From assembly GCA_036630325.1 (NCBI GenBank), contig CP142726.1, forward strand, positions 558,001 through 622,000: a stretch of DNA of 64,000 nucleotides, read 5' to 3'. This DNA is from Vairimorpha necatrix. Its lineage: Eukaryota. The notes under the pieces were generated by a model. It was given only the letters and a program-made list of their open reading frames with translations, made no database searches and had not been told where the DNA came from. Each line of letters opens with the position of its first letter. The first letter of the stretch is position 1. A program made the position numbers and the translations under genes. Shown here in pieces: positions 5,902-41,630 of the stretch.

Positions 5902-6085
5902 AATTGAAGTGCAAAAAAGAGAAGGAAGCATTAGCACTTGACTTAATTACATCTTTAAACAATAAAAATACTAAATAAAAATGTTATTGTATATAAAATT
6001 GAAATTTAAAAGAATAATTACTATGAAACTATATAGCTTCGAATAATTCGCCATGTATTGTATGCATTTTTTTGACTCAATAATC

Positions 6086-7124
6086 GGCGCTTCTCCGTTT
6101 TGCTGCCCCATTTTATTGGGGGCAGCAAAACGGGGAAAAGCAAAAATTTAATAATTTTTATTTTTTTATAAAAAGCCCCAAAAATGACAAAAATAAACTT
6201 TTATAATTATAGACATCCTTTGTTTTCCAGTCTTGCCTCATATAAAGACTACATGATAGAGACTGGAATTATTAATTTGATTAGACGATGTGGTTCTTGT
6301 GATCATATTGTTGCAAAGCTTACAATATTATTGGAAAGGGGAAAGGAAAGATTAGTTTATAGGTGTATGAGAGAAGAATGCAGGGCAAAAAAAAGCTTTT
6401 TACCTGGCATTAAATTATCATTTGAAATTTATCTTTTTGTTGTGTTCTTGGTCCTTTGTAACAGCAATTATAGATCAATTAAATGTTTAACGTGTGTGTC
6501 AAATGACACTATTTTAAAAAAAAGCTTAAATTGAGGGAATATATTAGAAAGCAATTGGAAACCGATTGCAAAATCGGTGGATCGGGAGTTCAAGTTGATG
6601 AAACTGTACTGTGTAGAAGAGGAACTTCTAGAGTTCCATCTAGAGCAGATGATGGAATTAAAGATACTGTATGGATTTGGGGGTTAATAGAAGCTGTAGA
6701 TAGAAAAAATATTTGCATAGTACAAGTTCCGGATCGAAAGATAAATACTTTAACAAATATAATTGAGATATAGTCTTACCGGGATCAGTTCTTATTTCGG
6801 ATGGCCATCCTAGTTATCCCGGTGTAGCAGCGAATCTAAAACTCAAACACATTATTGTAAATCATTCGATAGGATTTACTAATGAAGAAGGTTTTCATAC
6901 TAATAATATTGAGAATTTTTCGTCTATTATGCAATCTGAAATGACTAAACAGCACGAAGTAAAACGTGTGAATATCGAATCTTGGCTCGAAGAATTTACT
7001 TTTAGAAAATTTTTTTTAAATAATGTATTGAAGAATGAGGAAATGGATGTTTTTTTTGATTTTATTAAATTTATTTTTTTTTTGCTGCCCCATTTTTTTT
7101 GGGGCAGCAAAACGGAGAAGCACC
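6086..7124 (+). mobile_element. Merlin transposon, frameshifted
   Basis: TIRs GGCGCTTCTCCGTTTTGCTGCCCCA; 8-bp TSD CAATAATC; QVDET, SDGHPSY, VNHS and TNNIEN motifs. Confidence 0.95.
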
Positions 7125-7150
7125 CAATAATCTGTCTGGATTGTAGAACA

Positions 7151-8619
7151 GGTTAAATTGCGATGTTACCCCCTCCCCTAAAAAAATAAAAAAAAGGGAA
7201 AAACTAAAAAAGGAATAAAATTATACCCCTAAAATAAACATAAAGAATTTTAGAAAATTAATATATAAAAAAGAGGAATTATTTTTATTTCTTCTTAAAC
7301 AAAAAATTTTAAAGGTACCAATGTGCAATAAGTGCATGACCCCCATGACCTAAATTAGAAATAATTTGGACAAATATCGTTGTTACTTACGACGAAATAG
7401 GAGAAAATGCCCAAACAAAGGTAACATTTATAAAGAAAGCATTTTTAAAAGTTCTAGATTAGATATCGAAGATCTTTTAATTTTGCTGTGTGAATGGGTT
7501 AAAGGTGTAAGCAATGTTGTGGCTACTATCGAATGGGATATAGATAGTAGTACCGTATCTCTCTGGTGTACGCGGGCATAACGCCGTATTCTTATCCTAT
7601 TTCAACTACCTTCAAAACAAAACCACAGGAGGTTTAAATTGCGTAGTTGAAATAGACGAGACATTGCTTGTTAAAAGATATAACCATAACGGTAGAATGC
7701 TTTAATACCAAATTTGAGCTGTTGCTGGAGTTGTAAGAAGAGACGGCAATTCTTTTTTTTCGAAATTGTTGAAAATCGTTCAAGAACTACTCTTTTCGAT
7801 TTAATAAAACGAAAAATCACACTCAGATCTACAATTATTACTGATTGTTGGCGGGGTTATGAAGGGTTTTCGGAACTATGTCCGGATTGTAACTATTTAC
7901 ATTTAACTGTAAATCATAGCCAAAATTTTGTAAATTCAACAACAGGCGCCACACCCAAACAATTGAGAGAATGTGTTCTGTAATTAAAAGGGAATTGCGC
8001 AAAGAAGGAACAAGTTTTGGTTCTTGTGGTATAATGGATCATACCATATGAATGTTAAAAACCACATAATACTTTAACGCCGATGCTTCTTCGGAACGAT
8101 CAGTTATGGTCGACTATTATTGGTCAGCCAAATCTTATTTCACTTCTATTGGTTACCATGTATATAAATAAAGAAATTCCATGAACAACATGGTGCAACA
8201 TCAGAACGCAAACAAACACTCTTCCTTCTACAAATCAGATAAACAAAACTCTTTTCATAACAATAAACAATCCTTTCACTCTAACTCTTTTAACTCCGGT
8301 TTTCACTGCTCCCCAAACCGTAGCATCATTGAATGCTTCCTTGCCACAGGCAAGCTCCCCGGTAAACACGCCAGTTCTTTAATGAATCTAATTCGAAAAC
8401 TTTAAATAGCTCGTTTTAAGTATATTTATAAAGAATCACTACTTGAAAGAATGTTATGCTTTTTTGAAGCTCAAAATATATGGTTTGTAAATTACGATTT
8501 AGTCCCTGAATTTGATTTTGAATTAATTGAATAAATTTTAGTTTTGTCTTTTTTTTTTATTTTCCCCCCTTTTTTTATTTTTTTTTTTTTGGGGGGGGGG
8601 GCAACATCGCAACTTAACC
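7151..8619 (+). mobile_element. Merlin transposon, decayed, containing a solo LTR
   Basis: TIRs GGTTAA(A/G)TTGCGATGTT; 9-bp TSD TG(T/A)AGAACA; VEIDET, TDCWRGY and VNHS motifs. Confidence 0.9.
8025..8373 (+). mobile_element. Solo LTR (same family as 36522-36855)
   Basis: TG...CA ends; 5-bp TSD GTTCT; homologous to 36522-36855 and part of 62762-63468. Confidence 0.8.
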
Positions 8620-8814
8620 TGAAGAACATTATTTAATTTTTCTTATATTAATGGTACTTCTATTTTAAATAATTGGTTTATTATTAAAGAGTTGTTATGC
8701 AAAAATCTTCTCTTATAATAAACTAACAAATAAAAAAAAATTGGACGAAATAAAAAATGTTTACTCACTTGTATGATTGTAATGATTGATTTAAAAATAA
8801 TATTTATATGATGT

Positions 8815-9067
8815 TGTGGTATTTCTCAGCGGGACCTTCCCAGTACTGAGAAAACTCTCTACTATATTTGTTATAGTGTTTTGATTATGTTTAATATAAT
8901 TTTTACTGTGGTTAATATATTTATTGTTATTATGGTTCTTGTTCATTCTCTCTGAAATACTTGCCCCTAAACAAATTATTTTTATTTATACAAAAAATAA
9001 TTCTAGAAAATTCGTTGAGATTTTTGACATCTCAACAATTCAAAAATCCCATGTGGTTAATACCACA
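8815..9067. mobile_element. Solo LTR
   Basis: TGTGGT...ACCACA ends; 5-bp TSD GATGT; absent from the matching right-arm site (~36465). Confidence 0.85.
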
Positions 9068-9802
9068 GATGTATATTTGTTTATAGTTTTTTATATCATA
9101 AGGGCTTTGTTATTTTTGTATCCTTCCAGCTCCTGCTACTTTGTACTTCATTTTTGGAGTTCAAAAAAATGAAGTGAACACTCATAGATGAAAGATAAAG
9201 TATGAACATCTATAGCCTATATTTATTTATTTTATAATTTCTGTTTTTTGCAAGGGACAACTCGACCGACCGACCGAATGGTCTATTCTAAAAAATTATG
9301 TACTTTATAAGTTTATTAATTATCATATACAATACAATGCTAGGCAAAATAACGACAACTACAATTATCCTTTGAACTCAAGACTAAGAAAGGGCTTCTC
9401 GTTAAGAGACCAGACTCTCATATAAAAGGAAGAACATGCTCATCAGCACAATAAACTGATAAATTATATAGAACTGTGTTTGTCTAGAGGTAGCTCTTCT
9501 TTATGTCGTCAATTTGAATTTAAAGACGAATCAAATAGTAAATACGAAAATAGAATTCCATGTCTAATACAGAGAATTTGACTTTAATATCACAGGATCA
9601 AACGTTTAACGTATAGAAAAATAAAAATTAACAACCTCCCCATTAATTTCAATATTGGAATTACAAAGTTTGAGAATCCAGCGTAGGCCAATGTCTGGAA
9701 TAATTCACAAGGGGAAGAATATATGGAACCATGTTAGTTGGCGGTCGAGTTTTAAACACCCAGTCTAATAAATCATATTGAAACCAATAGCGGCATCATC
9801 AG

Positions 9803-10549
9803 TGTTGAGAATATATATTTAATAAATTTAACCCTTAACTTACAACTATCTTTAACATGGTGGAGAATAAAATTATTGAACCCAAACAAAAAAACAAAAG
9901 AAGAGGTTGTAAGTTACGCCGAGGCATGAGACGTAAAAAATCGCAGTATATGTTAGAATGGGGATGGTTGGTTGTCTAACAGAAGAGAAGGTATGACTTG
10001 CATCAGTCGAGGGGCCCGGATAGGTGGAGAATGAGAGTAGCTATGAAGAGCTATGGAGAAACAGTATTGACTGTAATAAGATCTGGCATAAGAGTTGTCG
10101 AGATTGAGTGTAGTGGTAATCCCACTATTCACATTAAAGCTATCGTGGCAAGATAGCTGAACCACAGTGTTCAAAAATCTAGAGAGATTTAAAAAGAGAA
10201 GAAAATTAAAATGAAAGTCTGTTGTAGTCGAAGAATGAGATAGACGGATAAAATCCAATTCCATTGTTGGAATACATGTGAAAAGAATAATCACATGCCC
10301 ATAGACTTATGTATTATAACAAGGAAAGAAACTACCGCAAAGACCAATACTAGAAGGGATAATAAGACGCGGTAGATAAAGCGCAGCATATGGCCAGTTA
10401 ACATAAAAATGCACTTTTATTTTTAGAGCGAAGTATTAAACTTAGGAAGTAGTAAAGATAATTACATCTCTCAGTTCTAAATTTAGCGCGGGCATGTTGA
10501 GAATATATATTTAATAAATTTAACCCTTAACTTACAATTAACTTTAACA
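9803..10549 (+). mobile_element. Non-autonomous miniature LTR element (TRIM-like), 55-bp LTRs
   Basis: LTRs 9803-9857 and 10495-10549 (TGTTGA...TTAACA, 2 mismatches); PBS TGGTGGAGAAT; TSD ATCAG/ACCAG; no pol motifs inside. Confidence 0.9.
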
Positions 10550-12956
10550 ACCAGAAACATGAGATTCGGAATTGCACAGGAGCTAGAAGATGTTAAGCAG
10601 TGCAACCACGCATACCTGGAAGATTATGTGAAGATCATATTTCAAAAGTTAGAGGGCTGCAGTTTTTCAAATAAATTTAATAAACAAAAAATCATGAGAA
10701 AATTTTCAGAGGTATTTTTTAAAGGACTGGTAGCAGACAGGGATGGAACAATGTAGGAATGGGGTTATTACACGGACCTTTCATGGGTTATTGCTTATCT
10801 AAAGAATTTAGAATTTACAATTTTTGTCCAATTAGGAAGACAAAAAAATAATGGGTATATACCATATGAAACAAGAAAAATTTGCAAATCAAGGAATTCT
10901 TATTGTGGTGTGCACAAGAGCTTTCTACAATACAAGTAATTGTAGACATCAGAACAATCACAAGGGTATTAAAGATAAATAGATACAATCCTAAGAATAA
11001 ACAAAAAAAACGGCTATACAGCTAGAAAGAATAAACGTCAGAAATAAGTGCAAATATTAGGAAGTTTAAACAGTAATAGTTACATATTGTTAATAGATAC
11101 TGGTTTACATTTAAATTTTCTAAGTGAACAAGTGGTCAATATGAATAATTATATAGTTGAGCTTTGTCAACCTTCCACTCTATATTTTGAATGTAAAAGG
11201 ACAAATAACTAACACTAAAGCCAGAATACGAATAAGTCTGTACAAATATTATCACGGGAATTGGTTACTTTACTATTATAAATTGTCCAAAGGATTCACT
11301 TCTAGCAGCTGAGTGGTTGAAACAGAATAAACCCCACATTTGACTTTACAAACCAATCACTTATTAACAGAAAAGAATAAATTCCCTTTATTAACGCGTT
11401 ATCAAACACGGATTAGATAGAATGAAAGATATAATAATTTATTTTTATGTCTTTCATTGAGGAAATTTATGTTTCTTACTTTGGAAATTATAAGAACCTC
11501 AATGATGTATTTTCCTCTATTAAATGTATGAAGCTCGATTAATGATTTTAAAAAGTCAATATAATTCGACATACATTCTAAAGTATAGCTTTAAAATATT
11601 TTGAAAGAGGAAGAAAGGAAGTTAAAAGATTAATCGACGAAGGCATTATAGAAAAGTCCAGACCATTTTTGCAAGTCCTGGTCATTCCATAGAAAAATCT
11701 TGTGAACTAAGACGGAGTAAAAATATATAAAGGGATAAAAAATCACAACGCAGATCACATTTTTTCAATACAAAATATAGGTGACTTAATACTGAGGCAT
11801 AGGAAGAAATACGTACATCTCGTAAATAGTTTAAAAACGGATTCAACCTGATCAAAATTCAGAAAGAAAGTAGAGATTTGACATCAATTATGATTATGGG
11901 AGTCCAACGTCGATACAAACGTGTATCTTTGGCATCAAACCGAGTCCAAAAAAATTTACAAGATACATTTCTGAAATATTACACGAAATGGATAACTGCT
12001 TCATAGACATGGCCGATATTGATTATTCACAAAAAACACCGGAAGCACATAGCAAATTAATCATAAATGAATGAACAAACTGAAAGAACAATTTTTTTTT
12101 AAAAAATTTAGACAAGTAACTTTATGAAAAATAACATCGCGTACTAGAAAATACTATCAATGCCCATGGTGCGTTTGCAACTAATAAATCGATTTATAAT
12201 TGAATATTGGCCAAAAGCTAGAAAATCGAAACAAATTACAAGAACTATTATGGACAATTGGATTGAACAGAAAATTCCTACCAAAATTGTCAACAAAATT
12301 ACTTCCATCAACAAACATGCTGCAACAAGAAGTAAAAACGGAATTACCCCTGCAAATTAAAACATTATCAAGGATATAAGCGAATTTATTATAATTCAAG
12401 CAAAATTAATCTGCTTAAATTGCACAAAGTCATTCATCTTAAAATGTGATGCTTCTGATATAGAGATAGGTTGTGTACTGTATCAAGAGGTTGAACCAAT
12501 TGGATATTTATTAGACTATTTGAGAAAGTTGAACTAAATTATATTATTTTTAAAAAAGGAATATCTTGAAATACTTTTATCACTGACATACTTTAAAGGT
12601 TTCTTCAAGGAAATTTCTAGAAGTCGGAAAAGATAGTAAACATTGCTTACACGGGATGAAACTAGAAACTGCAAGAGTGTATCGTTAGAAGCTAATTCTA
12701 TCTGCGTTTAGCCATAAATTGATATCCGTAGAAGCCAAGAAAATATAAGAGCAGATAATTTATCGAGATGCTTCACAATTTTTACAAACAATGGAAATGG
12801 CTACATAAAAATGGTTAAAATACAATAATAAGTGATAAAAATTAAAGGATAAATAAGTAAAAAGGGGAAGATTTTTATGCAACCAAACAAAGTAAAACAC
12901 TGCTGTATAACTACATCATGAACGAGGCCTCAGAGGAATTTCAACAATGTACAATA

Positions 12957-13970
12957 GGCTAAAGTTAGCTTTAGGACGCAAATTTCGATATAGGGGTTTT
13001 TTGTTTTTTTTGCCCTTTTTAAAAAAAATGGAAGAAAGAATAACTTTAAGAGCAGAATTAGAAACAGTGTATGAAAATTTAATTACTAAAAAACAAATTC
13101 AGATTTGCAGTGTGTGTGTGATAATAGAATGAGGTTCATGAGAAAACATAGTTGTGTTTTAATTTGTACCTGGAAAGATTGTAAGAAGCAAACATCAGTA
13201 TGGACGAATACTCTTTTTGAAAACTCAAACTCGATCATATCACAATTTTGCAGGTACTAAATTTGTGAATTCTTGGCCAGTCTCGTGAATTTATTTGCCA
13301 AATTCTCTGTTGTTCAAAACCTTCGATATCTTTTTCAATTGAAAAAATTAAAGGAATTAAACCTCTTTGCTAAATATTTATCATCTTTAAACAAGATATG
13401 AGAAGATATCATTGTTGAAATGGATGAAACTAAAATTGGAAAAAAATAAATTTAACAGAGGAAAATCAGTGAAGGGTTTTATGGTTTCGGCATAATAGAA
13501 CGTACTATCGAACGTAATATTGTGGTTCTATATATCAAAAAAGAGATAAAGAAACTCTTACAGATTTCTTATTAAAATTCGTTAATACAAAAAGCACTAT
13601 ATATAGTGATATGTGGAGGGCTTATCATTCTTTGGGCACCTTATTTAAAAAAATTATATGGTAAACCACTCGTTAAACTTTCGAGATCCAAATACTGGAG
13701 TACACACCAATACCATTGAAGGTAATTAAAGTTCACTCAAAAATTTCATACCTAACAGAAATAGATCAAAAAACGTACGGAATCTTTATTTACTTAGGTA
13801 TATGCTCCAGAAAAATTCATCTAATTCTGTTTCGATGCAATATTAAATTTATTGTTTAATTTTAAATTTTGTTCCTTCCTCTACATTTTCTTTCTTCCAT
13901 TTTTTTAAAAAAAGGGCCAAAAAATCAAAAAACCCTACATCGAAATTTGCGTCCTAAGCTAACTTTAGCC
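12957..13970 (+). mobile_element. Merlin transposon, decayed
   Basis: Long TIRs GGCTAAAGTTAGC..; VEMDET, SDMWRAY, VNHS and HTNTIEGN motifs. Confidence 0.9.
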
Positions 13971-15120
13971 CAATAGGCTAAAGAATTTTTCTTGATCACA
14001 TCTAATCCATAAGATAAAACAATTAGTAAAAATTGCAGAAAATGAAAAACTTTACACAATTTTTTGTCAAAAGGAAGATAGGAGCTCATATGTCGGCCGA
14101 AAACAAGCTTTAAAGAATCAACTCGGATATATATGGTTTATTTAGTGTAGGAAATTTGGGGACACAAGTAACATAATAAAAGATTAATTACTAATTTAAC
14201 AGACATTAAAATAGTATGCACGAAACTATAGTAAGCATTAAAATGGAAAGAAGAAATTATACGGCGCAGTCGGCAATTGAAATCAATTATAAAATTCAAG
14301 CCCATAAGCTAATACTAGACAACGGAATGCTGTTATAAACAAGCATGTTGAACATTATCTAAAGAAGAATGGATAAGGCCCTTACATATTATAACAAATA
14401 CCCTAAGTTCAAATGATATATCATAGTCAGTAAAATGCACTCTTACATTCATAAAAATAATCGTGAAAGCTAAAATTTAATTACGCCTTCGAGATGTGCG
14501 AATAAATGTTCAACAATAACTTAATAGATCAATAAAATGTTTCCTAATGCTACGCTAAACGTCAAAGAGTACTAAATCTACTAGAGAGAGCAATACAAAT
14601 GCGTAATAAAAAACATTAACTACTAGCAAATTCAGGCAACGTCAGCAAAGTGTCTGTAAAAAATTAGCGGCCATGAAGTCAGACTCAAAGTAATTAAAAA
14701 AAAGAAAAATAACGCAGTTAGGATCTAAAGAAAAATAAGTAAGGGTTAAATGGATTCTTAAGTGGATACGCGTTAAGGGCATAAAACTTCAGATAGGTTA
14801 AAGTGGTTTTATCAACACCACAATTTAGTTTTTTTATCTAATTTATGATTTCTATTTAAAAAGGGCCCATTCGACCGGTCGAATGGTCTATTCCAAGAAT
14901 TAAGTATTTAAATTTATTTATTATTTACCCCATACAATACAATGCTAGACAAAGAAATAGACAACTAAAATTACCTTTGGGATTTAAGACCACGGAAAGG
15001 CCTCGACCAGACCAGACCCCCCCCCAAAAAAAAAAAACGAAAGAAAAAATGCACCTTAACCCAAAAAACGATTAACTTAATAAAACTGTTGTAGACTACG
15101 ATTCTACAACATTTAATTTT

Positions 15121-16235
15121 GGTACATGACCGTTTGGAATCCGCTTTGAAAATTTAAATAACCCCCCTTTCAAAAAATGGCAAGATTGACAAAAAACAAA
15201 TTTTGTTGAAGAAGATGAGCTTTTTAGTAGTGAAATGTTTTTAAACAGGAAAAAAATGAAAATTTTATTTTGGAAACATTTTATGATGCTGAGACAGCGT
15301 GTATCTTTCTGGCACGCAGTTCATTAATAAAAAACAACTTTTTTTGTACTGTATGCAGCTCTGAAAGGCAAATGAAATTTATTAGAAGAATAAGATTATT
15401 AGACAAATATGTTTGGAATTGCACAAAACCTTGTACGGCTTCTAAATCTGTCAGAAAAGACTCTATTTTTGGAAATACCAAATTAAGTTTTTATAAAATT
15501 ATAAGAATGATATATAAGTATATCAAAAGAGTTTCCTTTCTCGATATAGCAAATGATCTTGAGCTAGACAGAAATACCGTAAGTACATGTGGTATGCTCT
15601 GCAGAGATCGCATAATCGAGGAAGTGACCAATAATAGTCAGAGGTTAGGAGGTCGTGATGAATTCGGCATTCCTAAAGTAGTGGAGTTCGACGAGAGTCT
15701 ATTCTTTCGTGCCAAATATAATCGTGGCAATCATACCATAGGTCAGTGGTATGTAGGAGGAGTGGAAAGAGGTTTTAAAAAGGCCTTTCTCGTCCCTGTA
15801 GCTAGTAGAAATACTGCTACTCTTCTTGAGGTAATACAATATAATGTATTGCCTGGTTCTATTGTGATCAATGAAGAGCATATGATGCTGCATTTAGACA
15901 AATCACAGGGATGGAGCATTAAACTGTGAATCACACTATCAATTTCGTAAATCCTAATGATCCGAGACACATACTCAACAAATTGAAGGATTTTGGTCTC
16001 TTTCGAAGAGAGATATTCGGTCTAGACATGGAATAAACCAGGACGAGCACTATGAGTATCTTTTACAGTTTCTATGGTCTTATTAAATACCAAAAAACCA
16101 AAGAATTAATCGACTTCTTTCATTATTCAAAATAAATCGTTAAGTCTCTTTTTTTATAATTTTTTTTATTTTTCCTTTTTTAAAATTTTCAAAGAGGTTC
16201 ATTTTCCCAAAGCGGGTTCCAAACGGTCATGTACC
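15121..16235 (+). mobile_element. Merlin transposon, left-arm specific
   Basis: TIRs GGTACATGACCGTTTGGAA; 8-bp TSD TTAATTTT; ORF 15270-15929 with VEFDES..KYNRG; empty site at ~32852-32860. Confidence 0.95.
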
Positions 16236-17281
16236 TTAATTTTTTCCCCTTACCTGTCAAATCAATCATTGAATTTTCTAGAATTTTTTTACTATAAATA
16301 AAATTTTAGAAAGTAAGGGTACCGAAAGATGATGTAGAGACGAACACAAGGAGTGTTTAAGGATAGCGACAAAAGAGCTATTAAAGAGTCCAAAGGGACA
16401 TTTGAGAATAAAAATAAATATATTTATTCTATTTTCGAGTGGTATTTTATTACCGGGAGTGCTTCCCCAAAATACCACAAAAACTTCATCTTTCCTGTGT
16501 TGGCATTATAATTACGTCAAAATAATTTTAATATTTTCTACATTGGAAAATAACTATTAATATTGTCCAATCTCCTCGTCATAATTATTAATTATGACGA
16601 CCTTGTTAGGAGGAAATTTGATTTAAGTATTTAAAAAAAACAAATGTATAACTTTAAAGTATTACGCGGATTAAAAGACTCGCATATTATAGCGATTGCA
16701 AACCAACTAACCTTTTACATCTATAGTAAAGTTGTGAAAATTTTCTTGAATTGTGATAATATTTGTAATTTTAGAGTCTTAATGAAAAGGTCTTTTTATG
16801 CTAAAGGGCAATGCCCAGTTCTAATATCATTATATAAGGATTAAATTATTAAATGGTATTAAAGACTGTTTTCATATAGTCTTCGAGTTATTATATACCT
16901 TTCAAAATTCATAAGAATATTTCTAAGTTGTGTACCTGAAATATATGAGATTGACATATTACCAGCCTTTTATAGATATCTGATGTTTGCCATTTCTTCT
17001 AAGATCGTTAATGTGTGTATAAATACCTTCACTGATAGATAAATGTTGCACAGGATCAATAGTTGTTAAATCTACTTTAGTCTTAGTTGACGTCAATTGA
17101 ACTTGTGAATATATTAAAATATATTACAACAATTTTCATGTCAAGCCTGTTTTATGCTTAAAAACCAACTTTATTCTGTACGGCATTCAATATTATGTTT
17201 ACTGTGTAACATATGATATAAGTATATAATTTTATTTGAGAAAATAGAGCTTATTGACTGGAGTCAACTCTTCATTGTGTA

Positions 17282-18129
17282 TTATTGAATTGCCTATTTT
17301 TCTATATTTGCAATTATTACGATAATGGTAAAGCATATTGTCTTGTCTTCCAAATAGCTTTTTATATTTTGATCATTTACATTTAATTGGTTTAAGATCA
17401 GTGTGAATTAAGTAGTGTCTTTTTATTTGACTTATTGTTCGAAACTCCACATCGCAATCGGCTTTCGCACAACAAAACATTTTTACTCCATTTCTATCTA
17501 CGGTAGCAAACATGCTGTTTGGGAATTCTGAATAGCTTCTTATAAATTTTTCCTCTGTTGTTGCCAATTCTGCCTGGTTATCCTCGTCTACACTGTCTAA
17601 TGAGACATCGTCTTCTAAACGTGCTACACCTTCCCTTTTCTTTCTTGGTTTTTCTTCCGAGACATGCTTATCTGTATGGCAGAAGTATTTTGTTATCTAA
17701 AACTGGTTAGATCCCTACTTATTTGATCTATTTTCATTTTTCTCAATTTTTGTATAATTTTGCCTCGAATCTTAATCCATTCTTCTTCTAATATATCTTT
17801 TCCGCCCCAAGAATCTTTTAGCTTATTATATTCTTTTTGTGCTCCTTCTAAATATTCTAAAGGCACTTTGCTTTTTTTAAGTTTAGAACTTTCTTCTTCT
17901 GCTATTTCTCTTAAGTAATCTAGACCTGTTTTTTGGCTTCCTTCATGTGAATAGCCGTATGGTGGAGCCCTTTTCTGGTTACCATTTTCATGGTTTTGAT
18001 AAGACTTATTGACATTTTTTTCATTTCTAATATCACAATCAGAACTAGATCTGTCTTTAGCAAAAACATCGTCTGCCGTTTCTCCAGATTATTGAATTTC
18101 ATCCATTTGTCTGATTCTCTACTAGACAT
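17282..18129 (-). pseudogene. C2H2 zinc-finger protein pseudogene, left copy
   Basis: C-x4-C..F..IKRHYLIH plus TDLKP linker, then a stop, then a second finger remnant KLFGRQDNMLYHYRNNC; several stops/frameshifts upstream. Confidence 0.8.
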
Positions 18130-19213
18130 AGTATTTTCAATATTTTTTTTATTTTTATGTAAAAAAGGAGAAAAGGGGTCACTCCTCATATATTAGTAAG
18201 GCATATTTTTTAAATACCAATCACATTAAAAATTTTAGTATTTTTTATAAGTGTTAAATATGCAATATTATAACTTTTATGCTTTTATCATACATTTAAT
18301 GCTTGTGTGTTAAAACATAAATTTAATGCAAAAAATCAACTTTTTGATTAATACTCTGATATATAATTTATTCATTATAAGAATTCGTTTTTTTCACTCT
18401 TCACAATGTAGATATTATATAAACTAATATTGATTGTTGTAAAACATACTAAAAGTATATTTTGTGATGTTTTACTTATGCCATATAATTATACATGCAA
18501 ATGGATTTAATTCTACTGACCTTGAAAATTCTCCTTTAACTATATCAGGGGTTTCATTAGATACATTCTGGATCATTCAATCTAGGAAGTCATTTAAAAT
18601 ATAAAAAATTCTTTGTTTCGCAAGAACTGTTTTCATATAATAACAAAATATAAAAGCAATATTAAAAATTTTTAGCAAAAAAATTTCTATTTTATGAAAC
18701 ACGACTTAGTGCCCATTTTAAAGTTACAAATATTTTTAGTAATTTTCCATGATTGATAATAAATTGATCATTTAATTTTTTTTTCTTGATCATATTTTTA
18801 TTAGTCAACGGTATCTTATTGTATTACTAAAACTAGAAAAGTAAACCTGTCCTATAATAGTTATACACCATATTAAAGACTATTCGTAATGTTTATTTTT
18901 TAAAGTAAATTATAATTTTTCTAACCCTAGTTACAAATCATTACTCTTTATCAGATATCAAACTTTTCGTTACAAACTGGTCCAGACCGACCTGGTTATC
19001 ACAAATCATTGTCTCAAACACAGATATAAAAAGAAAAGTTTCTCAATAAATATGTAATTTTGTCCTTTCTCATCAACTCTTTTCAACAATAATTATATGT
19101 TATAAACAAGATAAAAACATAATAGACAATATGTAAAAATTATAAATAATTGTTATATATAATATAAACATGATACTGTAGGGACAATGCAAAGGCATAA
19201 ATCTAAAATAAGA

Positions 19214-20233
19214 GCGTCAAAAATCAGTGTAGTGTAAAAAAAATTACAGGGGTCAAATTTCTTAAAAAATAGCCCCTTTTTAAAAAAAGGAAAGGAAGAG
19301 GAAACTCTAGAAACAACATAAAACTTATATGTATATATAAATGTCATTGAATTAAGATTTAGATATATATAAAAAAATTTGAAAAACATAATTTCAATAA
19401 CGCTTCGTAGGTATCCTGACTCTCATTTCTCCAGATCATATAGAGAGTCAAATAAATCTCTGCAAGGTCATATGTCCTACATCTAATGAATCACATTATT
19501 TAAATGATTTTTTATATCCTTCAACGCTTTATGAACATCTATTTTATCGCTTAAATGTTTGTTTATGATTCACGGGTTTATGGTACCCATAATAGTCTTT
19601 CAAGGTTATATAGGCCATCCACATATCATGATTTTTAACAGATCTAAATTTCACGTGCTTACATAAGATCGAAAGCGATGTATCTTTTTTAATAATCACT
19701 AAAACTAACTTTCTTATTCGGCCCTTTCCATCATCTCGAAACACTAAAATAAAAACCTTTAACAATTTTCCCCCTGGTTATTTTTTACCAATAATATTTA
19801 TTCTATCTCTACAATAATCTCACGCCTCCTATCTGTCTTAGGTTATTCAAATAGTTGTCGTAAGTTTTTTATGTGCAATTGTTCTAAGATGTAACCTAAG
19901 TTTTGTACATATCGTCCTAACGCTCTCAAAATATGAGTTACTTTGTGTCCAAAATTCCCCATTTTGAAAGATTTTACATGCGTAGACGATCTTTCTCACA
20001 TTTGAAAATAAAGTATTTTTTCAAATTAGAAAAACATGCTTGTATGAAGGAAACTTGGATCTAGAATAAGCAGTTATATTTGATATTTAGAGGTATACCA
20101 AAAAAATTATATATTTTTGTTTATACTACTTGTTTAGTAGACGTGCGTAAAAATCTTCAATCACTTCATTACTTAGCATTCCTTTCCTCTTTTTAAAAAG
20201 GGCAATTTTATTACACTAATGCTGATTTTAGCC
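19214..20233 (-). mobile_element. Old Merlin relic present in both arms (left copy)
   Basis: ORF 19544-19765 has decayed ISXO2 motifs (DMWMAY, VNH); degenerate TIRs resembling those of 12957-13970. Confidence 0.7.
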
Positions 20234-20639
20234 ACAGGAGCTATTCTATGCATTGTGAGACTCTGTAGTAAAAAATTTTACAAGCACTATAGACTTGAAA
20301 TTTGATTAGATAATTTCTTAACAAGTACTCAAAATTGTCGCGAGTTCTTGACTATGTAAAGGCAGTTTTGCAGACTAAACACTCCATCCCAAAATTTCTT
20401 TATTCAAATAAAACGCAAATTTTCAATCATGTAATTTTGAATATAAAATCAGCATATTTTGACATCTTTCACGCAAAAAAAAACATTTTATTCTATAAAG
20501 TGTACTCTAATGCGTCTTTAATAGTGGTCTCATTGCCATCGAAACCATGTCTTTATTAAAAGGGGGTTCCGTTTTAAGTCTAACTTTTGCACCTCTATAG
20601 TCCTACTTTTCATTTAAGTTCTTTATTTTTTTAAAAAAT

Positions 20640-21000
20640 AAAAACCTTTTGTATACCTAGAAAAGCGATAACAATAGTCACAATGGGTTGCGCATTTTTA
20701 TCTTTCAAATGAATTAACGAGGAACTGAGAGTTTTAGGCATTCTTATGTTTTTTTGCCTTCACATTAACCACAGCTTAATAGTATTAAAGAATATTTTTT
20801 ATCATGAAATCGAGGCTTTGTGCTGTACGAAATTTTAGTAATAACATAGAAACAGATTTAAAACAATTCTAGAAAACGATTTAAGCTTCTCGTGCCATTA
20901 ATTCTACACGATAAAGGTATGATGCTAGAAACGGCAAGGCGAAACTTGAATTTATCTAATTTAATGAGATTGTATATTGTTTTGTATATATTTCCCTCTA
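20640..21000 (+). pseudogene. Tc1-like transposase C-terminal relic (mirror copy ~23750-24090)
   Basis: Translates to LPSH*PQLNSIKEYF, resembling the LPPYSPxLNPIE motif; boundaries approximate. Confidence 0.45.
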
Positions 21001-21704
21001 GTTCATTATATAACAAATGCTGGATAATTTTCAATTTTTTTCAATAAATGGATTTTAAAATGCAAAATTTTGCATTTTAATCATTTAAGAAGACACAGAA
21101 AATTAAGTTTATAATTTTACTAAGATTATAAAATTAAATTCCATACAAGAACATACAAAAAAAAACTTTTGAGATTACACAAGCAGCTACTTTATAATAA
21201 GAGGAATAAAGAGAAGAGATACACACGGCCCCCGTATTTAAGGGCGTACAATTTTTTCCGAACCTCAAAAATGAAATGCCAAAAAAGTAGAAGTAAGCAA
21301 ATAACAAAAATACTGACCATTTTCGATGACTAAAAAACTTAAAAGATAAATAAGAGGGATACATATAATTTTAAACATATTTGTTCTGTAATTGGCCCAA
21401 AGTAGTTGTTTTCATTTAACAATTTTTATAAATTTACTTAACTTTTTTTTATACAATGCCCTTAAAAATGATCTAGAACTAGAAAGAAGTCGAAGAAATC
21501 ATATGCAATAATAGAAATCGAAAACACCAATTAATCTGTTTATTTTGCGTTAGTATATAAAAATATTCAAAAAAACAAAAGAAACTCAAATGTTCGATGA
21601 GACTGTGAAGAAAAGAAACCATTTTAACAAACAGAAGGCCTTTTTAAAACTCAAAATTTCAATGGTTAAAAAAATATGTGTTACCTTTATCACTTGCGGC
21701 TTTA

Positions 21705-23025
21705 CAGGGATATAGTCGTTTTAGTGCCATGTTTGAATCGTTATAGTGCCATGTTTGAATTTCTATAGTGCCATGTTTAAATTTTTATAGTGCCATGTTT
21801 GAATTTCTATATTCCCATGTTTAAATTTCTATATTCCCATGTTTGAATTTCTATATTCGTATGTTTGAAATGCTATAGTGCCATGTTTGAACTTCTATAG
21901 TACCATAAAAAGTTGAAATTTAAAAATTTATAAAAAGTTTATTAAAATAAGTCTTCTTTTGGCTCTGGACTTTTCTTCCACTCCATCATATTTCTATAAA
22001 ATTCAGGACACAGGCGGCTAAAAATTAAACTCAAAACATTATTAAGACTTGTTTAAATTTGACTTTCTGCATTATGAAAAGATGAAAATCCTGCCTTGAG
22101 CATTGAAAAGAATTCTTCGATGGGATTGAATTGTGGAGAATAAGGAGGCTGAAATTTATGATTGATCTTAGACAGTTTAATTTTAGTAAAACTTCCCGTG
22201 AATGATGAAAACTAGCATTATCAAATATAAGAACTTTGCCCGGATTATTCCTAAAAAACATAGACATTTTTTTCTCCACAAAGTTCATAAAACTCTCAGA
22301 GTTATACGCTCCACGTTTAAACTCAAATGCCAATAATCCATTTATTTTAATTACGCACATGCAGCTGATATTTTGGCCGCGATTTGCTGGCACATTCTTA
22401 TAGGCTTTGGTGTTTTTCTATGAGTATTCGTAACTACGGGTCGAATGAGCGTTGAACCCAGTTTCATCAAGGAAAACTACGTTTTCAACAGAGTACCTAC
22501 TAATTTCAGATGCATAGATACTTCTTTTATTTAACTTGTCCAAAGAATTACGTTTAACAGGAATTAATGAAAGTCCTTTTCTTGTTATGCCTAGTTTTTT
22601 AAGTTTTTCAATATTGAAGATATGCTCAAATTTACTCCTGTTCGTGTATTTAGCTCGTCGCAAATTTCTTTCAAAGTCATATCATTTGCACAATCAACTA
22701 TGTTTTTTATAACACGCTCTGTGTTTGAAAATATTTCGCTTTCACCAAACTGCGGAAAAGGACCAACGGATTGATTGTGCTGTCTTTTTATGATAGATGC
22801 AACGGTTTTACGATGTAAACGAACCATCCTCGATATTTCAACCATCATCGTTTTTCATCTTTCGCTAACTTCAAAACTACATTTCTTAATTCAGTAGTTA
22901 TGGGTTTTCTTTCTTTTCTAACCATTAAGGGGCATAAAAAATGAAAATTTTTATAAATTTTTAAATTTTAACTTTTTATGGTACTATAGAAATTCAAACA
23001 TGGCACTATAGAAATTCAAACCTTG
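21705..23025 (-). mobile_element. Tc1/mariner (DDE_3, approx. DD34E) transposon at the palindrome centre, frameshifted
   Basis: ORF pieces 22591-22848 (HTH-like), FLDETGF, FDNASFHH and PYSPQFNPIEE; flanking TA at 21703-21704 and 23026-23027; ends CAGGG.. / ..CCTTG. Confidence 0.93.
21722..21906 (+). repeat. 22-bp tandem repeat in the Tc1 TIR (8 units plus a partial); about 2 units' worth inverted at 22978-23020
   Basis: Consensus TAGTGCCATGTTTGAATTTCTA, head-to-tail with no spacers. Confidence 0.95.
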
Positions 23026-25350
23026 TAAAGCCGCAAGTGATAAAGGTAACACATATTTTTTAACCATTGTGATTTTGAGTTTTAAAAACGCCTTCTGTTT
23101 GTTTAAAAGGTTTCTTTTCTTCACAGTCTCATCGAACATTTGAGTTTCCTTTTAGTTTTTTTGCATATTTTTATATACTAACGCAAAATAAACAGATAAA
23201 TTGGTGTTTTCGATTTCTATTATTGCATATGATTTCTTCGACTTCTTTCTAATTCTAGATCATTTTTAAGGGCATTGTATAAAAAAAAGGTGAGTAAATT
23301 TATAAAAATTGTTAAATGTAAATTATCTACTTTGGCACAATAACAGAACAAATATGTTTACAATTATATTTATCCCTCTTTTTTTATCTTTTAAGTTTTT
23401 TAGTCATTGAAAATGGTCAGTATTTTTGTTATTTGCTAATTTCTACTTTTTTGGAATTTCATTTTTGAGGTTCGAAAAAAAATTGTACGCCCCCAAATAC
23501 GAGGGCCGTGTGTATCTCTTCTCTTTATTCCTCTTATTATAAAGTAGCTGCTTGTGTAATCTCAAAAAAAAATTTTGTATGTTCTTGTATGGAATTTTAT
23601 TTTTTCTTAGTAAAATTATAAACTTCATTTTCTGGGTCTTCTTAAATGATTTTAACTGCTCATTTTGCATTATAAAATCCATTTATTGAAAAAAACCAGA
23701 ATTTGTTATATAATGAACTAGAGGGAAATATATGCAAAACAATATACAACTCTTTAAATGGGATAAATTCATATTTCTCCTTGTCGTTTCTAGCATCATA
23801 CCATAATCGTAAAAAATCAATGGCACGAGAAGCTTAAATCGTTTTCTAGAATTGTTTTAAATCTGTTTCTACGTTATTATTAAAATTTCGTACAGCACAA
23901 AGCCTCGATTTCATGATAAAAAAATATTCTTCATTTCTTTAAGCTGTGGTTAATATGAAGGCAAAAAACATAAGAATGCCTAAAACTCTCAGTTCCTCGT
24001 TAATTCATTTGATTGATAAAAATGCGCAACCCGTTGTGACTATTGCTCTCGCTTTTCTAGGTATACAAAAGATTTTTATTTTTTTTAAAATAATAAAGAA
24101 CTTGCATGAAAGTAGGACTATAGAGGTGCAAAAGTTAGACTTAAAATGCTTCTCCTTTTAATAAAGACATAGTTTCTATGGCAATGAGACCACTGTTAAA
24201 GATGCATCAAAGTACACTTTATAGAATAAAATCTTTTTTTGCGAGAAAGATGTCAAAATATGCTGATTTTATATTCAATATTACATGATTATAAATTTGC
24301 GTTTTATTTGAATGAAGAAGTTTTGGGATGGTGTGTTTAATCTGCAAAACTGCCTAGACATAGTCAAGATCTCGCGACAATTTTGAATACTTGTTAAGAA
24401 ATTATCTAGTCAAATTTCAAGTCTATAATGCTTGTAAATTTTTTACTACAGAATCTCACAATGCATAAAATAGAACTGTGAGAAAAAAAGCATTAGTGTA
24501 ATAAAATTGCCCTTTTTAAAAAGAGGAAAGGAATGCTAAGTAATGAAGTGATTGAAGAACTTTACGCACGTCTACTAAACAAGTAGTATAAACAAAAATA
24601 TATAAGTTTTTGGTATACCTCTAAAGTATCAAATATAGCTGCTTATTCTAGATCAAAGTTTCCTTCATACAAGCATGTTTTTGCTAATTTGAAATAATAC
24701 TTAATTTTCAAATGTGAAAAAGATCGTCTACGCATGTAAAATCTTCAAAATGGGAAATTTTAGACACAAAGTAACTCATATTTTGAAAACGTTAGGATGA
24801 TATGTACAAAACTTAGGTTACATCTTATAACAATTGCACATAAAAAACTTACGACAACTATTTGAATAACCTAAGACAGATAGGAGGCGTGAGATTATTG
24901 TAGAGATAGAATAAATATTATTGGTAAAAAATAACCAGGGGGAAAATTGTTAAAGGTTTTTATTTTAGTGTTTCGAGATGATGGAAAGGGCCGAATAAGA
25001 AAGTTAGTTTTAGTGATTATTAAAAAAGATACATCGCTTCCGATCTTATGTAAGCACGTGAAATTTAGATCTGTTAAAAATCATGATATGTGGATGGCCT
25101 ATATAACCTTGAAAGACTATTATGGGTACCATAAACCCGTGAATCATAAACAAACATTTAAGCGATAAAATAGATGTTCATAAAGCGTTGAAGGATATAA
25201 AAAATCATTTAAATAATGTGATTCATTAGATGTAGGACATATGACCTTGCAGAGATTTATTTGACACTCTATATGATCTGGAGAAATGAGAGTCAGGATA
25301 CCTACGAAGCGTTATTGAAATTATGTTTTTCAAATTTTTTTATATATATC

Positions 25351-28300
25351 TGTGGTATCCCACATGTCAAACATATCATTTTTGACATTTCTTGATTTGT
25401 TTACCCTGTAAACAAACAAAAAAAAAACTATAAAAGAAAATTCCATACTTAGGGGTATGGAAGATAAGAGAAATAAACTATTTACTCAAAACTTATCTTT
25501 ATTGGAGTTGTACTTCCGCAGGAGGTACGACATATTGAATTCAATAAGAGAGTACAAATATAATGAACTCCCACCCACGCGAGGAAGAGAAATCGCAGGG
25601 CACAACTCCAAAATTCAAGAAACAAAAGTAGTCACCATAAGAATTAAGACAGGTGAAGTGGATCTAGGAATCACTAAGAATGTAGAACTGATCAACGACA
25701 TATTCGAAATCGATCTACTAGGATGGTTCAAAAAGATCGAAGAAATTTTTCAAAGGAACCAATGGAATGAAGAAACTAAAAGGCTCTTTTTATACGATCT
25801 TATAGAAGATCAGATTATAGATAAAACCAAATTGAAAGATGATTATGAAGAGAACAAAAAATACATCATGTCCAAAGTATTTTCACAGAAAAGGGTCGAG
25901 AACTTAATAGCAGAACTGAGTAATCTCAAACAGACTGACCACATCTTCTTCGACGACTATGTAAACGAAATCATGAATCGATTAACTATCTACAGTAAAG
26001 TATCTAACTGTAGCATGAAAGAATACGAACGAAGATCAAAGGAATCTCTATACAGAGGACTAGGCTTAGAAACAGTAAGATATCTCGAGGAACAAAACCT
26101 CGAAACACTACCTGAAATCATACCAGCTCTAAAAAGAATTGAAGAAAACATAATAACAAGATTTAACATACCGAGAAAGCTAAATAACACCTCAGGTATA
26201 AGATTCATGAAAAAATGGTGTAAAGTCCACAAAACTTTGGGACATACAACGAGAGACTGCGGGCAAAGCAATGAAACAAATCGATCGAATATGAGCAAAG
26301 TAAAACACGAAAAATTCAACAACTACAAAAAGACAGTAGTTCCCGATACCAATCAAAATTTAAAAAATACAACGAGAAAGACTTCAGAGCCCAGGGAAAA
26401 TAAAAACTCTTTAAACTATGTTATTTTAGAAAATCCTAACATTGTCGAACAACTCGATATCCCACTCATAATCAACACAAAACATGAGTCAACAGGAACT
26501 ATAGACTGCGGAGCAGGATTAAACTTTATAAAAGCAGACCTCGTAGAACAATGGAACATCACCACTAGAGAAAACAAAGAGATCCAGGTAATGTTCGGTA
26601 ATAAATCTAGTGAAAAAACTAACACTACAATAGAACTCGACTTAAAATTAAAGGATCAAAACGAGACATGCAAGATTGAATTTTACTTATTAAAAAACCT
26701 ACCAGTCAATATTATACTTGGTAGAGATTTCATATCGAGAAACGATATTATATTAGATTTTACAAGAAAGAAAATAATCTGGAACAACGCAACCGTAAAT
26801 ATGAAAACAAATGCAGAAGAAACAGAATTCGAAAAACCCCCAGGAAAAATACTTATCACTAAGGAAGAAGAAAGACTTAGGGAAATTATAGATAATTATA
26901 AAAGAGAAATCAAAGAAAATTGTCCTATAAACACAGATCACGTTAAATTACAAGTTTCAAACAACGACATAAAATGTAAGAAAATTAACTATGCCGTACC
27001 ATCAAACTTTAAAGAAGATGCAATAGCCGAAATACAACGACTTATAACCGCTGACATAATAGAAGAATGTAATGAAAGATACACAAGTCCCGCATTTTTT
27101 AAGAAAAAGAAAAATGGGAAAATGAGATTAATAGTAGACTATAGAGAAATAAATAACTTTGTTGAAGATGAAGTGGAAATAATACCCAAAATGGACGATA
27201 TTATTTATCAACTTGGTAAAAGCGAAGTAATAAGCAAATTAGACTTGACAAACGGGTTTAATCAATTACTCCTAGCAAAAGATAGCAGAAAATGGACAGC
27301 ATTTTCGATATTTGGTAAAACATTCAGGTACAAAAGACTTCCTTTTGGATTAAAAAATGGACCAAAAGCTTTTCAGAAAATCATGAACAAAATACTTTTC
27401 GGGATAAATAACATTTCAGTATATATAGACGACATAATAATTGCCACAAAGGACTACGAATCACACCTCAATACGCTTAAAGAACTGTTCACAAGATTGA
27501 AACATTACAATGTAAATGTAAATTTCGCAAAATCAGAGTTTTGCACAAAGGACACCGAAATCCTAGGAACAAGAATTTTTAACGGAAAAATGTACCCTCT
27601 CACGAAAGACTGTAAACTAACAGAAAACATGAAATGCCACACTAAAAAAGACCTGCAAAAAATAATTGGCATATTTAATTGGTACAGAAAATACATTCCA
27701 AACTTAAGTCTAGAAATTCTAAGCTTAACCGAAAAGCTAAAAGGAAACGAAAAAAAAGTCAAGCTAACAAAAGAAGACAATCTAATAATAAACAAATTAA
27801 TAAGTACACTAAAGAACAATAGCCACCTAGTACTGCCAGACTACAGTAAAAAATTTACACTACATTGCGACGCCTCTGAACTAGGAATGGGCGCAGTACT
27901 ATCACAAGAACACGGAATAATTTTAAATATAAGCATGAAATTTAATAAAACAGAAAGAAATTATACAATAGTGGAAAAAGAATACTTTGCAATAGTATAC
28001 GCGATGGATAAGTGCAGAAACATAGTACTCGGAAATTACGTCGAAATCTATACAGATAACAGGAATTGTCTATTTAAAAGCAAAATAAGCAGAAGAATAG
28101 AAAGATGGGACGCGATGATGATAGAGCACAATTACTGCATAAAACAAATCGCAGGAGAGAATAACTCAGTAGCTGACTACCTATCAAGATGTTTTAAAAT
28201 AGAAAATGTCAGACATGGAAATAACCTTACGAATATAATAGAACAATATGTAGAAAAAATATCAGACGATAAATCCGGAAAGGAAAACTGGGAAAGAAAT

Positions 28301-29450: not shown

Positions 29451-29976
29451 ATATCTAAATCTTAATTCAATGACATTTATATATACATATAAGTTTTATG
29501 TTGTTTCTAGAGTTTCCTCTTCCTTTCCTTTTTTTAAAAAGGGGCTATTTTTTAAGAAATTTGACCCCTGTAATTTTTTTTACACTACACTGATTTTTGA
29601 CGCTCTTATTTTAGATTTATGCCTTTGCATTGTCCCTACAGTATCATGTTTTTATTATATATAACAATTATTTATAAATTTTACATATTGTCTATTATGT
29701 ATTTATCTTGTTTATAACATATAATTATTGTTGAAAAGAGTAGATGGGAAAGGACAAAATTACATATTTATTGAGAAACTTTTCTTTTTATATCTGTGTT
29801 TGAGACAATGATTTGTGATAACCAGGTCGGTCTGGACTAGTTTGTAACGAAAAGTTTGATATATGATAAAGAGTAATGATTTGTAACTAGGGTTAGAAAA
29901 ATTATAATTTACTTTAAAAAATAAACATTACGAACAGTCTTTAATATGGTGTATAAATATTATAGGACAATGTTTA

Positions 29977-30248
29977 TGTCATGTCCTCAAAACCATGACA
30001 TCTGTGTTGTACTGTGTTAAAACTTTAATCAGTAAAACACTGCTCCGAACGAATAGTCAAAGGCGATGATCTCTAAAGATCAGACATGAAACGTTATGTT
30101 TCATAAATAATATAAATAGTCCGAAAAGGTTAGAAAACACTGAGCATGAAGAATAACACTTAAAACAGATCAAACATAAATAAATGTAAAATAATACAAA
30201 TATTTTAGAAATGTATTATAAAACGGAGATATTACTATGTATATGTCA
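29977..30248. mobile_element. Solo LTR, right-arm specific
   Basis: TG...CA ends; TSD GTTTA; empty site at ~18842-18847. Confidence 0.85.
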
Positions 30249-36345: not shown

Positions 36346-36521
36346 TCCTCCGAGGGTGTTCACTTCTATTTTTCAAACCCCCCAAATCAAGTACAGAATA
36401 GCATGAGCTGGAAAGAGACAAAAATTACTAAGCTTTTATGATATAAAAAACAATAAACGAATATAGATTTATATACAAAAAAAATTTCAATCAAGTTATA
36501 ACAATCATATAAACTAGTAAG

Positions 36522-41577: not shown

Positions 41578-41630
41578 AAATGGTTTCTACTTTATATGAT
41601 GCAGTTGGATCAACTCAGATGATGAAAATG

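What the first reader, a model, noticed from the sequence alone, without database searches (positions are those of the whole stretch)
5902..21704. Arm identity is stratified, suggesting arm-to-arm gene conversion
By-eye arm comparison: outer part (5902-9800 vs 35400-37097) roughly 75-80%; 10550-11010 and 14800-16700 roughly 90-93%; a block at ~16800-19900 about 99%; then a drop to roughly 93% next to the centre (19900-21704). A single duplication event predicts uniform divergence. Outward IR expansion predicts the youngest sequence outermost, the opposite of what is seen. Inference: an old palindrome repeatedly homogenised by conversion tracts, as known for mammalian Y palindromes.
Basis: partly seen in the sequence, partly recalled or inferred. 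Interest (0 to 1): 0.8.

Follow-up and report, generated by a model that had tools for sequence, protein, structure and literature searches.

The report
Patchily homogenised palindrome around a transposon
A stretch of mostly dead jumping-gene DNA in a parasite genome lies twice, head to head around one transposon, and the two copies were made alike again in at least two later rounds of copying, a known kind of DNA repair seen here in junk DNA rather than in genes.

Summary
The stratification is real. After removing arm-specific insertions, 7,277 colinear columns fall into blocks of 80.8, 92.8, 99.6, 96.3, 99.7 and 93.3% identity. The outer arms are true positional paralogues (LTR quartet 51:0:0). 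An intact paralogue on contig C5 rules out rate variation. Both arms share the lesions of a dead zinc-finger gene, and share six derived substitutions plus a frameshift that a contig from another public run lacks. So sequence was copied between the two copies.

Best reading (0.6): an old inverted duplication, one ~9-kb copy event anchored on the transposon's terminal repeats, then recent 0.7-1.7 kb conversion tracts, perhaps with a flip of the centre. Main rival (0.25): one arm was captured from a divergent homologous chromosome. It works like Y-palindrome or yeast flip/flop conversion but is not a Y-type palindrome. The scan noted another palindrome elsewhere in this genome (e1-7176613).

The parts
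5902..9761 (+). Left arm, oldest stratum (~81%): MITE-like element X, the 5' LTR and the start of gag of an old Ty3-type element, broken up by left-only insertions (6086-7124, 7153-8620, 8815-9067); continues upstream of the window
9762..16809 (+). Left arm, ~93% stratum, outer part: rest of gag, 3' LTR, solo LTR; left-only insertions 9803-10549 and 15121-16243; 11011-14786 has no counterpart in the right arm
16810..18499 (+). Recent homogenised tract 1 (99.64%), covering the dead zinc-finger gene
17285..18129 (-). C2H2 zinc-finger pseudogene, left copy; frameshifts and stops identical to the right copy; intact 281-aa paralogue on C5
18500..19170 (+). 96% island around the site where only the right arm has a solo LTR
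19171..19880 (+). Recent homogenised tract 2 (99.72%); spans the empty site of the right arm's young Ty3 insertion
19881..21704 (+). Left arm, ~93% stratum, inner part: decayed transposon remnants, ending in TA at 21703-21704
21228..21679 (+). Left ~450 bp of an older ~1.2-kb TIR element, mirrored at 23051-23506; its other ~700 bp was not found in the window or the 30 kb searched beside it
21705..23025 (-). Central Tc1/mariner-type element: broken DDE_3 transposase, terminal repeats with 22-bp units (many left, few right), both ends joined through TA to the same flank in mirror image
23026..24831 (-). Right arm, ~93% stratum, inner part
24832..29646 (-). Right copy of tract 2, split by the young Ty3 element
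25351..29450 (+). Right-only young Ty3/gypsy element: 182-bp LTRs 100% identical, open 1269-aa frame, 5-bp target duplication
29647..30595 (-). Right copy of the 96% island, with a right-only ~275-bp solo LTR at about 29975-30248
30596..32285 (-). Right copy of tract 1, with the right copy of the zinc-finger pseudogene (about 30966-31810, + strand)
32286..35438 (-). Right arm, ~93% stratum, outer part; a right-only TIR element at 33186-34908 stands where 3.8 kb of the old Ty3 is missing
35439..37199 (-). Right arm, oldest stratum (~81%); right-only insertions 35655-36019 and 36519-36855; beyond it (37372-41479) the right side goes on matching the C5 paralogue, the left side does not

Best explanation
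An inverted duplication in a transposon-filled, gene-free region that has been reworked by homologous recombination between its own arms. Step 1 (shown): an old inverted duplication; its outer kilobase keeps the original divergence of about 19%. Step 2 (inferred): a Tc1-type element inserted near the centre. Step 3 (geometry shown, mechanism inferred): one long copy event, anchored inside by the element's terminal inverted repeats and outside by the old arm homology, replaced whatever lay on one side of the element by a mirror copy of the other side for about 9 kb. A break at one element end, fold-back onto the other end, synthesis, and rejoining into the old arm would do this. This is the 93% stratum. 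Step 4 (shown as copying between the two copies; cis inferred): recent tracts of 1.7 and 0.7 kb made the arms 99.7% alike, stopping about 330 bp either side of a one-arm insertion, probably in both directions. Step 5 (weak): a crossover between the arms flipped the centre. No function is proposed: it is a record of repair in dead DNA, and it spread gene-killing lesions rather than protecting a gene.
For: Strata. Positional homology of the oldest stratum: 51 of 299 LTR columns group left-5' with right-5' and left-3' with right-3', none supports either other grouping; 37 of 245 in a stricter core. One 93% stratum: Fisher p 0.62; 81% against 93%: p 8e-19. Centre: the 15-mer ending in TA occurs twice in the genome, once at each end of the element; 0 of 18 other loci of this transposon family have a mirrored flank. 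The element is 93.1% like a five-copy majority, between the per-arm ages of the 81% and 93% strata; its 78-bp terminal repeats are 93.6% alike. Rate control: at 16480-16809 the arms differ at 20 of 324 sites, at 16810-17290 at 2 of 475, while the right arm differs from C5 at 123 and 119 sites there (p 8e-5). Other public runs: X1 record 1 carries right-arm alleles at 16421-16809 and runs on, nearly unchanged, through 16810-17623 where the arms are equal. X1 record 2 (17757-18258) has the C5 state at six substitutions and one frameshift where both arms share the derived state, yet shares the arms' 3-base deletion. Right-type alleles outside and left-type alleles at 19991-20631 occur in both studies.
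Against: No raw reads or long reads from the source were laid, so cis linkage and the centre junction rest on the assembly. The X1 and X2 pieces are short contigs, not linked to each other, and only 40 of 212 substitution rows and 16 of 76 pieces were displayed. The 96% island is less diverged than 93% (25/670, p 2e-4), so it is either a further event or slower sequence. The older element stops aligning about 27 bp before the TA, so what stood at the centre before is unknown. Dating by nearest copy is loose: the repeat at 8025-8376 is only about 79% like its nearest copy among those compared but sits inside an element whose nearest copies are 93% alike. Fold-back cannot be told from deletion between the terminal repeats of two mirrored copies.
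Confidence: 0.6

Rival explanations
1. Capture from a homologue: the inner ~9 kb of one arm came recently from a divergent homologous chromosome, joined head to head through the terminal repeats of an allelic transposon. The 93, 96 and 99.7% blocks are then the mosaic of allelic divergence and inter-allelic conversion, and only the 81% part is old paralogy.
For: Homologous copies in a tetraploid microsporidian show a mosaic of pairwise identity (PMC12558613, section 9). A haplotype that is right-type outside and left-type inside would arise from one allelic crossover, and both types of piece are present in two studies. The mirrored centre fits equally well.
Against: In the two 93% zones the displayed X1 and X2 pieces lie within about 0.5% of one arm, and the most distant piece assigned to this locus away from them is 3.4-5% from the left arm, not 7%. 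The 81% segment is colinear and contiguous with the 93% segment, so an old inverted paralogue was already in place. The left arm does not go on into the right arm's native flank within 40 kb upstream. Ploidy of this genome was not tested.
Confidence: 0.25
2. Assembly artefact: polishing or consensus calling merged the arms in the 99.7% tracts, or two haplotypes were mis-joined at the transposon.
For: No source reads were examined. Short-read assemblies are known to merge near-identical inverted repeats (PMC9731477, passage).
Against: The 150 bp on each side of the right-only Ty3 junction, and just inside three tract edges, are uniquely anchored; they show 1 difference in 302 and 0 in 453 bases against about 21 and 32 expected at 7%. 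The tracts keep 6 and 2 differences. Each arm has its own insertions, several with target duplications. Arm differences are substitutions with transitions and transversions, not mainly homopolymer gaps.
Confidence: 0.08
3. One duplication, with identity differing because selection or mutation rate differs along the arm.
For: The zinc-finger region is better conserved against C5 (88-97%) than its flanks (65-77%), and the 96% island overlaps conserved non-coding sequence.
Against: Tract 1 includes 16810-17290, 25% diverged from C5 but 0.4% between arms. Tract 2 is a remnant only 70% like its family. The gene is dead in both arms with identical lesions.
Confidence: 0.03
4. No duplication: nested or dispersed transposons of different ages that happen to lie in opposite orientation.
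For: Most of the sequence is repetitive, and one outer match is exactly this (8025-8376).
Against: Junctions between unrelated elements are shared and colinear in both arms; the LTR quartet gives 51:0:0; the zinc-finger stretch has only one other copy in the genome.
Confidence: 0.02

Closest known systems
Human Y-chromosome palindromes P1-P8 (PMC8600007, passages; PMC3723533, abstract)
   Same: Inverted arms on one chromosome made alike by conversion; tracts of mean about 2 kb and up to more than 9 kb; rare crossover inversions. The tracts here are 0.7, 1.7 and about 9 kb.
   Different: Y arms exceed 99.9% throughout, are separated by a unique spacer and mostly carry genes. Here identity is 81-99.7%, the arms hold many unshared insertions, the only gene is dead, and the centre is a transposon.
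Saccharomyces flip/flop (FF) region inverted repeats (PMC9731477, passages)
   Same: Fungal inverted repeats of a few kb, homogenised within strains by conversion, with occasional crossover that inverts the interior; near a centromere.
   Different: FF repeats hold expressed sporulation genes, keep fixed boundaries across species and flank 24 kb of genes. Here there is no live gene, homogenisation is partial, and two orientations are not shown.
Fold-back palindromes formed at a pair of inverted repeats (yeast inverted dimers; PMC10164571, passages)
   Same: A pair of short inverted repeats 1.5 kb apart, even at 86-94% identity, can anneal in single-stranded DNA and yield a mirror copy of the flank centred on the repeat pair. 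The element here is 1.3 kb with 93.6% identical ends.
   Different: There the product is a dicentric chromosome in a mutant; here it is a stable interstitial structure, presumably closed by rejoining into an older arm. The break and the annealing are inferred.
Another palindrome noted in this genome
   Same: Head-to-head duplication around transposon sequence in the same genome.

Membership tests
Y-type palindrome | Two inverted paralogous arms on one chromosome | tested here: met
   (in the assembly)
Y-type palindrome | Arm identity above 99.9% along the arm | tested here: not met
   80.8-99.7%
Y-type palindrome | Unique, non-duplicated spacer | tested here: not met
   centre is a dispersed transposon; arms reach both of its ends
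Y-type palindrome | Derived variants shared by both arms relative to other individuals | tested here: met
   six substitutions and one frameshift against X1 record 2, polarised with C5; one contig of one study
Y-type palindrome | Conversion shown to occur in cis on a non-recombining haploid chromosome | not testable with these tools
   no phased homologues or source reads
Homogenised inverted repeat with flip/flop interior (Saccharomyces FF type) | Repeats cluster within a strain | tested here: inconclusive
   true at 17757-18258, false in the 93% zones, where other runs match one arm
Homogenised inverted repeat with flip/flop interior (Saccharomyces FF type) | Interior found in both orientations | tested here: inconclusive
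   right-type outer and left-type inner pieces in two studies, not physically linked
Homogenised inverted repeat with flip/flop interior (Saccharomyces FF type) | Functional genes in the repeat | tested here: not met
   zinc-finger gene broken in both arms
Fold-back palindrome at a short inverted repeat | Arms begin exactly at a pre-existing inverted-repeat pair | tested here: met
Fold-back palindrome at a short inverted repeat | Loss of the sequence that originally lay on the other side | tested here: inconclusive
   rest of the older host element not found in the window or 30 kb beside it, but the last 27 bp before the TA do not align
Fold-back palindrome at a short inverted repeat | Initiation by a break or single-stranded region | not testable with these tools
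   historical event
Tc1/mariner element (centre) | DDE transposase, terminal inverted repeats, TA on both sides | tested here: met
   DDE_3 E 4e-8; TA-flanked ends here and in family copies; the superfamily label itself is recalled

The most novel reading that the evidence does not exclude
A TIR transposon that lands in the spacer of an old inverted duplication can serve as the inner anchor for a single multi-kilobase copy event that swallows the spacer and leaves a transposon-centred palindrome. The arms then keep exchanging kilobase tracts in both directions and flip their centre. This would be a dated, within-chromosome record of homologous recombination in a microsporidian, lying in a gene-free domain of more than 160 kb that may be pericentromeric.
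Probability: 0.3. Interest if true: 0.6.

Novelty: new variant of a known kind. Interest (0 to 1): 0.4.

Why it matters
Arm-to-arm conversion is usually explained as upkeep of genes in palindromes. Here it acts on dead transposons and copies frameshifts, so it looks like a by-product of repair that needs no selection. [quoted passage not shown] The transposon-centred geometry suggests how the several palindromes of this genome could arise. The process itself is well known, and no function is implied.

Tried and rejected
Rfam: no match at gathering score in the window, so the repeats are not rDNA or a known RNA family. Genetic code 4 gave no better gene set. Pfam found no family for 4 of 9 proteins scanned, among them the C5 zinc-finger protein and the two frames I call Merlin-like; that label is recalled from 8-bp target duplications and terminal repeats. 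The Atlas gave zf-C2H2 neighbours by features for the C5 protein but no structural match and no taxon. Mirrored flanks at other transposon copies: 4 of 180 loci had an inverted repeat of 250 bp or more, two being this window and two short MITE-like ones. Continuation of the left arm into the second zinc-finger gene: none within 40 kb upstream. The centre junction in metagenome contigs: 0 matches. Public runs: no RNA holder listed. In X1 and X2 no left-type contig was displayed at 16421-16809 and no right-type contig at 19991-20631, and neither covers 21572-21730; contigs show presence only, so this is not used as evidence that those samples lack an arm. The inverted MULE pair at 288-1964 and 41630-46651 has unrelated flanks and was rejected as part of the arms. 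Paper searches that found no description of this structure: (5, 1 and 0 papers holding all terms; listings only); the library lacks most subscription journals, and no supplements were read. Earlier notes near the locus or with these words: none.
Full report
Setting. The window is G000:C1:558001-622000 of a 15.0-Mb genome in 12 contigs, about 30% G+C, with few long frames; those scanned are retrotransposon, MULE or DDE proteins or have no family. No frame of 200 aa or more unrelated to the window's own repeats was found in 17 of 17 consecutive blocks from about 508 to 672 kb, while 8 of 10 scattered blocks elsewhere on C1 had one (frames cut by block ends are missed, and window frames match themselves, so those rest).

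1. The observation. Self-comparison shows colinear inverted matches from 5906/37091 inward to the centre. With arm-specific insertions excised, 7,277 columns split into six blocks: 80.8% (198/1030), 92.8% (99/1380), 99.64% (6/1690), 96.3% (25/670), 99.72% (2/710) and 93.3% (120/1797). In the core the changepoint score is 74.6 against at most 16.2 in 200 permutations. I left out the match 8025-8376/36519-36855, which is out of order and belongs to a dispersed repeat whose other copies are 84% like the right one.

2. The outer arms are real arms. Both sides hold the same old Ty3-type insertion: left about 9200-15100, right about 36330-32880 with 3.8 kb missing where a TIR element now stands. Its four LTRs group as left-5' with right-5' and left-3' with right-3' at 51 of 299 columns and in neither other way; identities are 78.8% for the 5' pair, 94.8% for the 3' pair and 67-68% across. 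The neighbouring MITE-like element X is 75.1% alike between arms, against 68-70% from the left copy and 74-75% from the right copy to five other copies. The left arm resumes upstream of the window after a 6.9-kb nest. The right side goes on matching a paralogous locus on C5 (37372-37505, 40989-41058, 41419-41479), the left does not within 40 kb, so the right side is the older position. The C5 locus lies among housekeeping-like genes and has an intact 281-aa C2H2 zinc-finger gene.

3. Rate variation does not explain the strata. At 16480-16809 the arms differ at 20 of 324 sites and the right arm from C5 at 123; at 16810-17290 the figures are 2 of 475 and 119 (p 8e-5). Tract 2 is a transposon remnant 70% like its family. 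The zinc-finger copies share frameshifts and stops absent from C5.

4. The centre. The arms end in TA at 21703-21704 and 23026-23027, and between them lies one Tc1-type element with a broken DDE_3 frame. Both ends are of the family's terminal type; a loose count gave 8 units of 22 bp on the left and 1 on the right, an asymmetry also seen in family copy L115. There is no unique spacer. The flank is the left part of an older 1.2-kb element whose remainder was not found nearby, although its alignment stops about 27 bp short of the TA. None of 18 other loci of the family has a mirrored flank. The inner and outer 93% zones do not differ (p 0.62). The left-only insertion in that stratum has nearest copies at 95%, the right-only ones at 92% and 95%, and the young Ty3 has identical LTRs, all compatible with insertion after the event. 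From the centre to 9762, less later insertions, is about 9 kb.

5. Other samples. Two public runs from two studies hold parts of the left arm as contigs (shares 0.38 and 0.21); they may include haplotypes close to the source. Of 21 displayed substitution rows between 16460 and 16809, 19 are the right-arm allele in both runs and two are alignment shifts. X1 record 1 continues to 17623 with 31 substitutions where the arms differ at 29. X1 record 2 (17757-18258) differs from the left arm at 17 sites where the arms differ at 4 and C5 at 35; it has the C5 state at 17801, 17844, 17965, 18056, 18072 and 18202 and lacks the one-base deletion at 18082, but has the arms' 3-base deletion, and its states interleave within a few bases, so it is a third allele and not a C5 piece. 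Inside, X1 records 7 and 8 differ from the left arm at 1 site each where the arms differ at 19 and 13, and X2 record 16 at 0 where they differ at 11. X1 record 4 and X2 record 14 cross the empty Ty3 site. So the genealogy changes along the arm: right with other samples outside, left with right in part of tract 1, left with other samples inside. That is what conversion in both directions plus a crossover gives, but an allelic mosaic gives it too. Only 40 of 212 rows and 16 of 76 pieces were shown.

6. Collapse by polishing. Uniquely anchored stretches beside the Ty3 junction and inside three tract edges show 1 difference in 302 and 0 in 453 bases, against about 21 and 32 expected at 7%. This argues against short-read collapse; long-read consensus mixing was not testable.

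7. Mechanism. Shown: old duplication, three or four strata, shared derived states, mirror symmetry to the element's ends. Inferred: insertion of the element after the duplication (93.1% to a five-copy majority; a loose clock), one long copy anchored on its terminal repeats, recent tracts in cis, a flip. In yeast, inverted repeats 1.5 kb apart and 86-94% alike anneal in single-stranded DNA and give mirror dimers (PMC10164571, passages), which is the geometry needed. Deletion between the terminal repeats of two mirrored copies, or rejoining of a cut end to the sister chromatid, would leave the same junction. Confidence 0.6; capture from a homologue 0.25, given mosaic identity among homologues in a tetraploid microsporidian (PMC12558613, passages and section 9); artefact 0.08.

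8. Comparison. It works like conversion in human Y palindromes (mean tract 2,068 bp, maximum over 9 kb, rare inversions: PMC3723533, abstract; arms above 99.9% with a unique spacer: PMC8600007, passages) and like the Saccharomyces flip/flop repeats (PMC9731477, passages). It is a member of neither: identity, spacer and gene content fail. Gene-poor retroelement clusters have been proposed as regional centromeres in another microsporidian (PMC13174016, passages); whether this domain is one is untested. Searches (listings only) found no description of this structure; no supplements were read.

Verdict. A real, well-marked case of a known process in an unusual setting, with an unnoticed transposon-defined centre. 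New variant of a known kind; interest 0.4.

Noticed in passing
G000:C1 about 508-672 kb (L199, L147, L146, L145, L101, window, L116, L200-L203): More than 160 kb without a non-transposon frame of 200 aa or more; 8 of 10 scattered blocks elsewhere on the contig have one. Possibly a heterochromatic or pericentromeric domain.
   Followed up: partly
L003:1500-3200 against window 17400-18800: The C5 paralogue is 88-97% alike here, including about 650 bp upstream of the gene, but only 65-77% on both sides; either constraint on an unannotated upstream element or an older conversion between contigs.
   Followed up: partly
window 41030-41480: Broken start of a second zinc-finger gene, interrupted by insertions; its paralogue on C5 (L003:4192-5190, 332 aa) is intact.
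   Followed up: partly
window 9803-9857 / 10495-10549 and 37526-37595 / 40926-40994: Retrotransposon-like elements with very short terminal direct repeats (55 and 70 bp).
   Followed up: no
window 36353-37342; L148-L158: An ~800-bp non-autonomous element with terminal inverted repeats, an internal third copy of the terminal sequence and a central hairpin; at least a dozen copies.
   Followed up: partly
window 21705-21930; L114, L115: Tc1-type family whose terminal repeats are arrays of a 22-bp unit that vary in number between ends and copies.
   Followed up: partly
window 288-1964 and 41630-46651: Two MULE copies in opposite orientation, 90-94% alike, with unrelated flanks; not part of the arms.
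   Followed up: yes
window 16253-16480 and 29975-30248: Solo LTRs of two small families whose other copies come in pairs only about 2.1 and 2.5 kb apart (non-autonomous LTR elements).
   Followed up: no
window 61771-61844 / 62655-62728: A young element with 74-bp terminal inverted repeats that are 100% identical.
   Followed up: no
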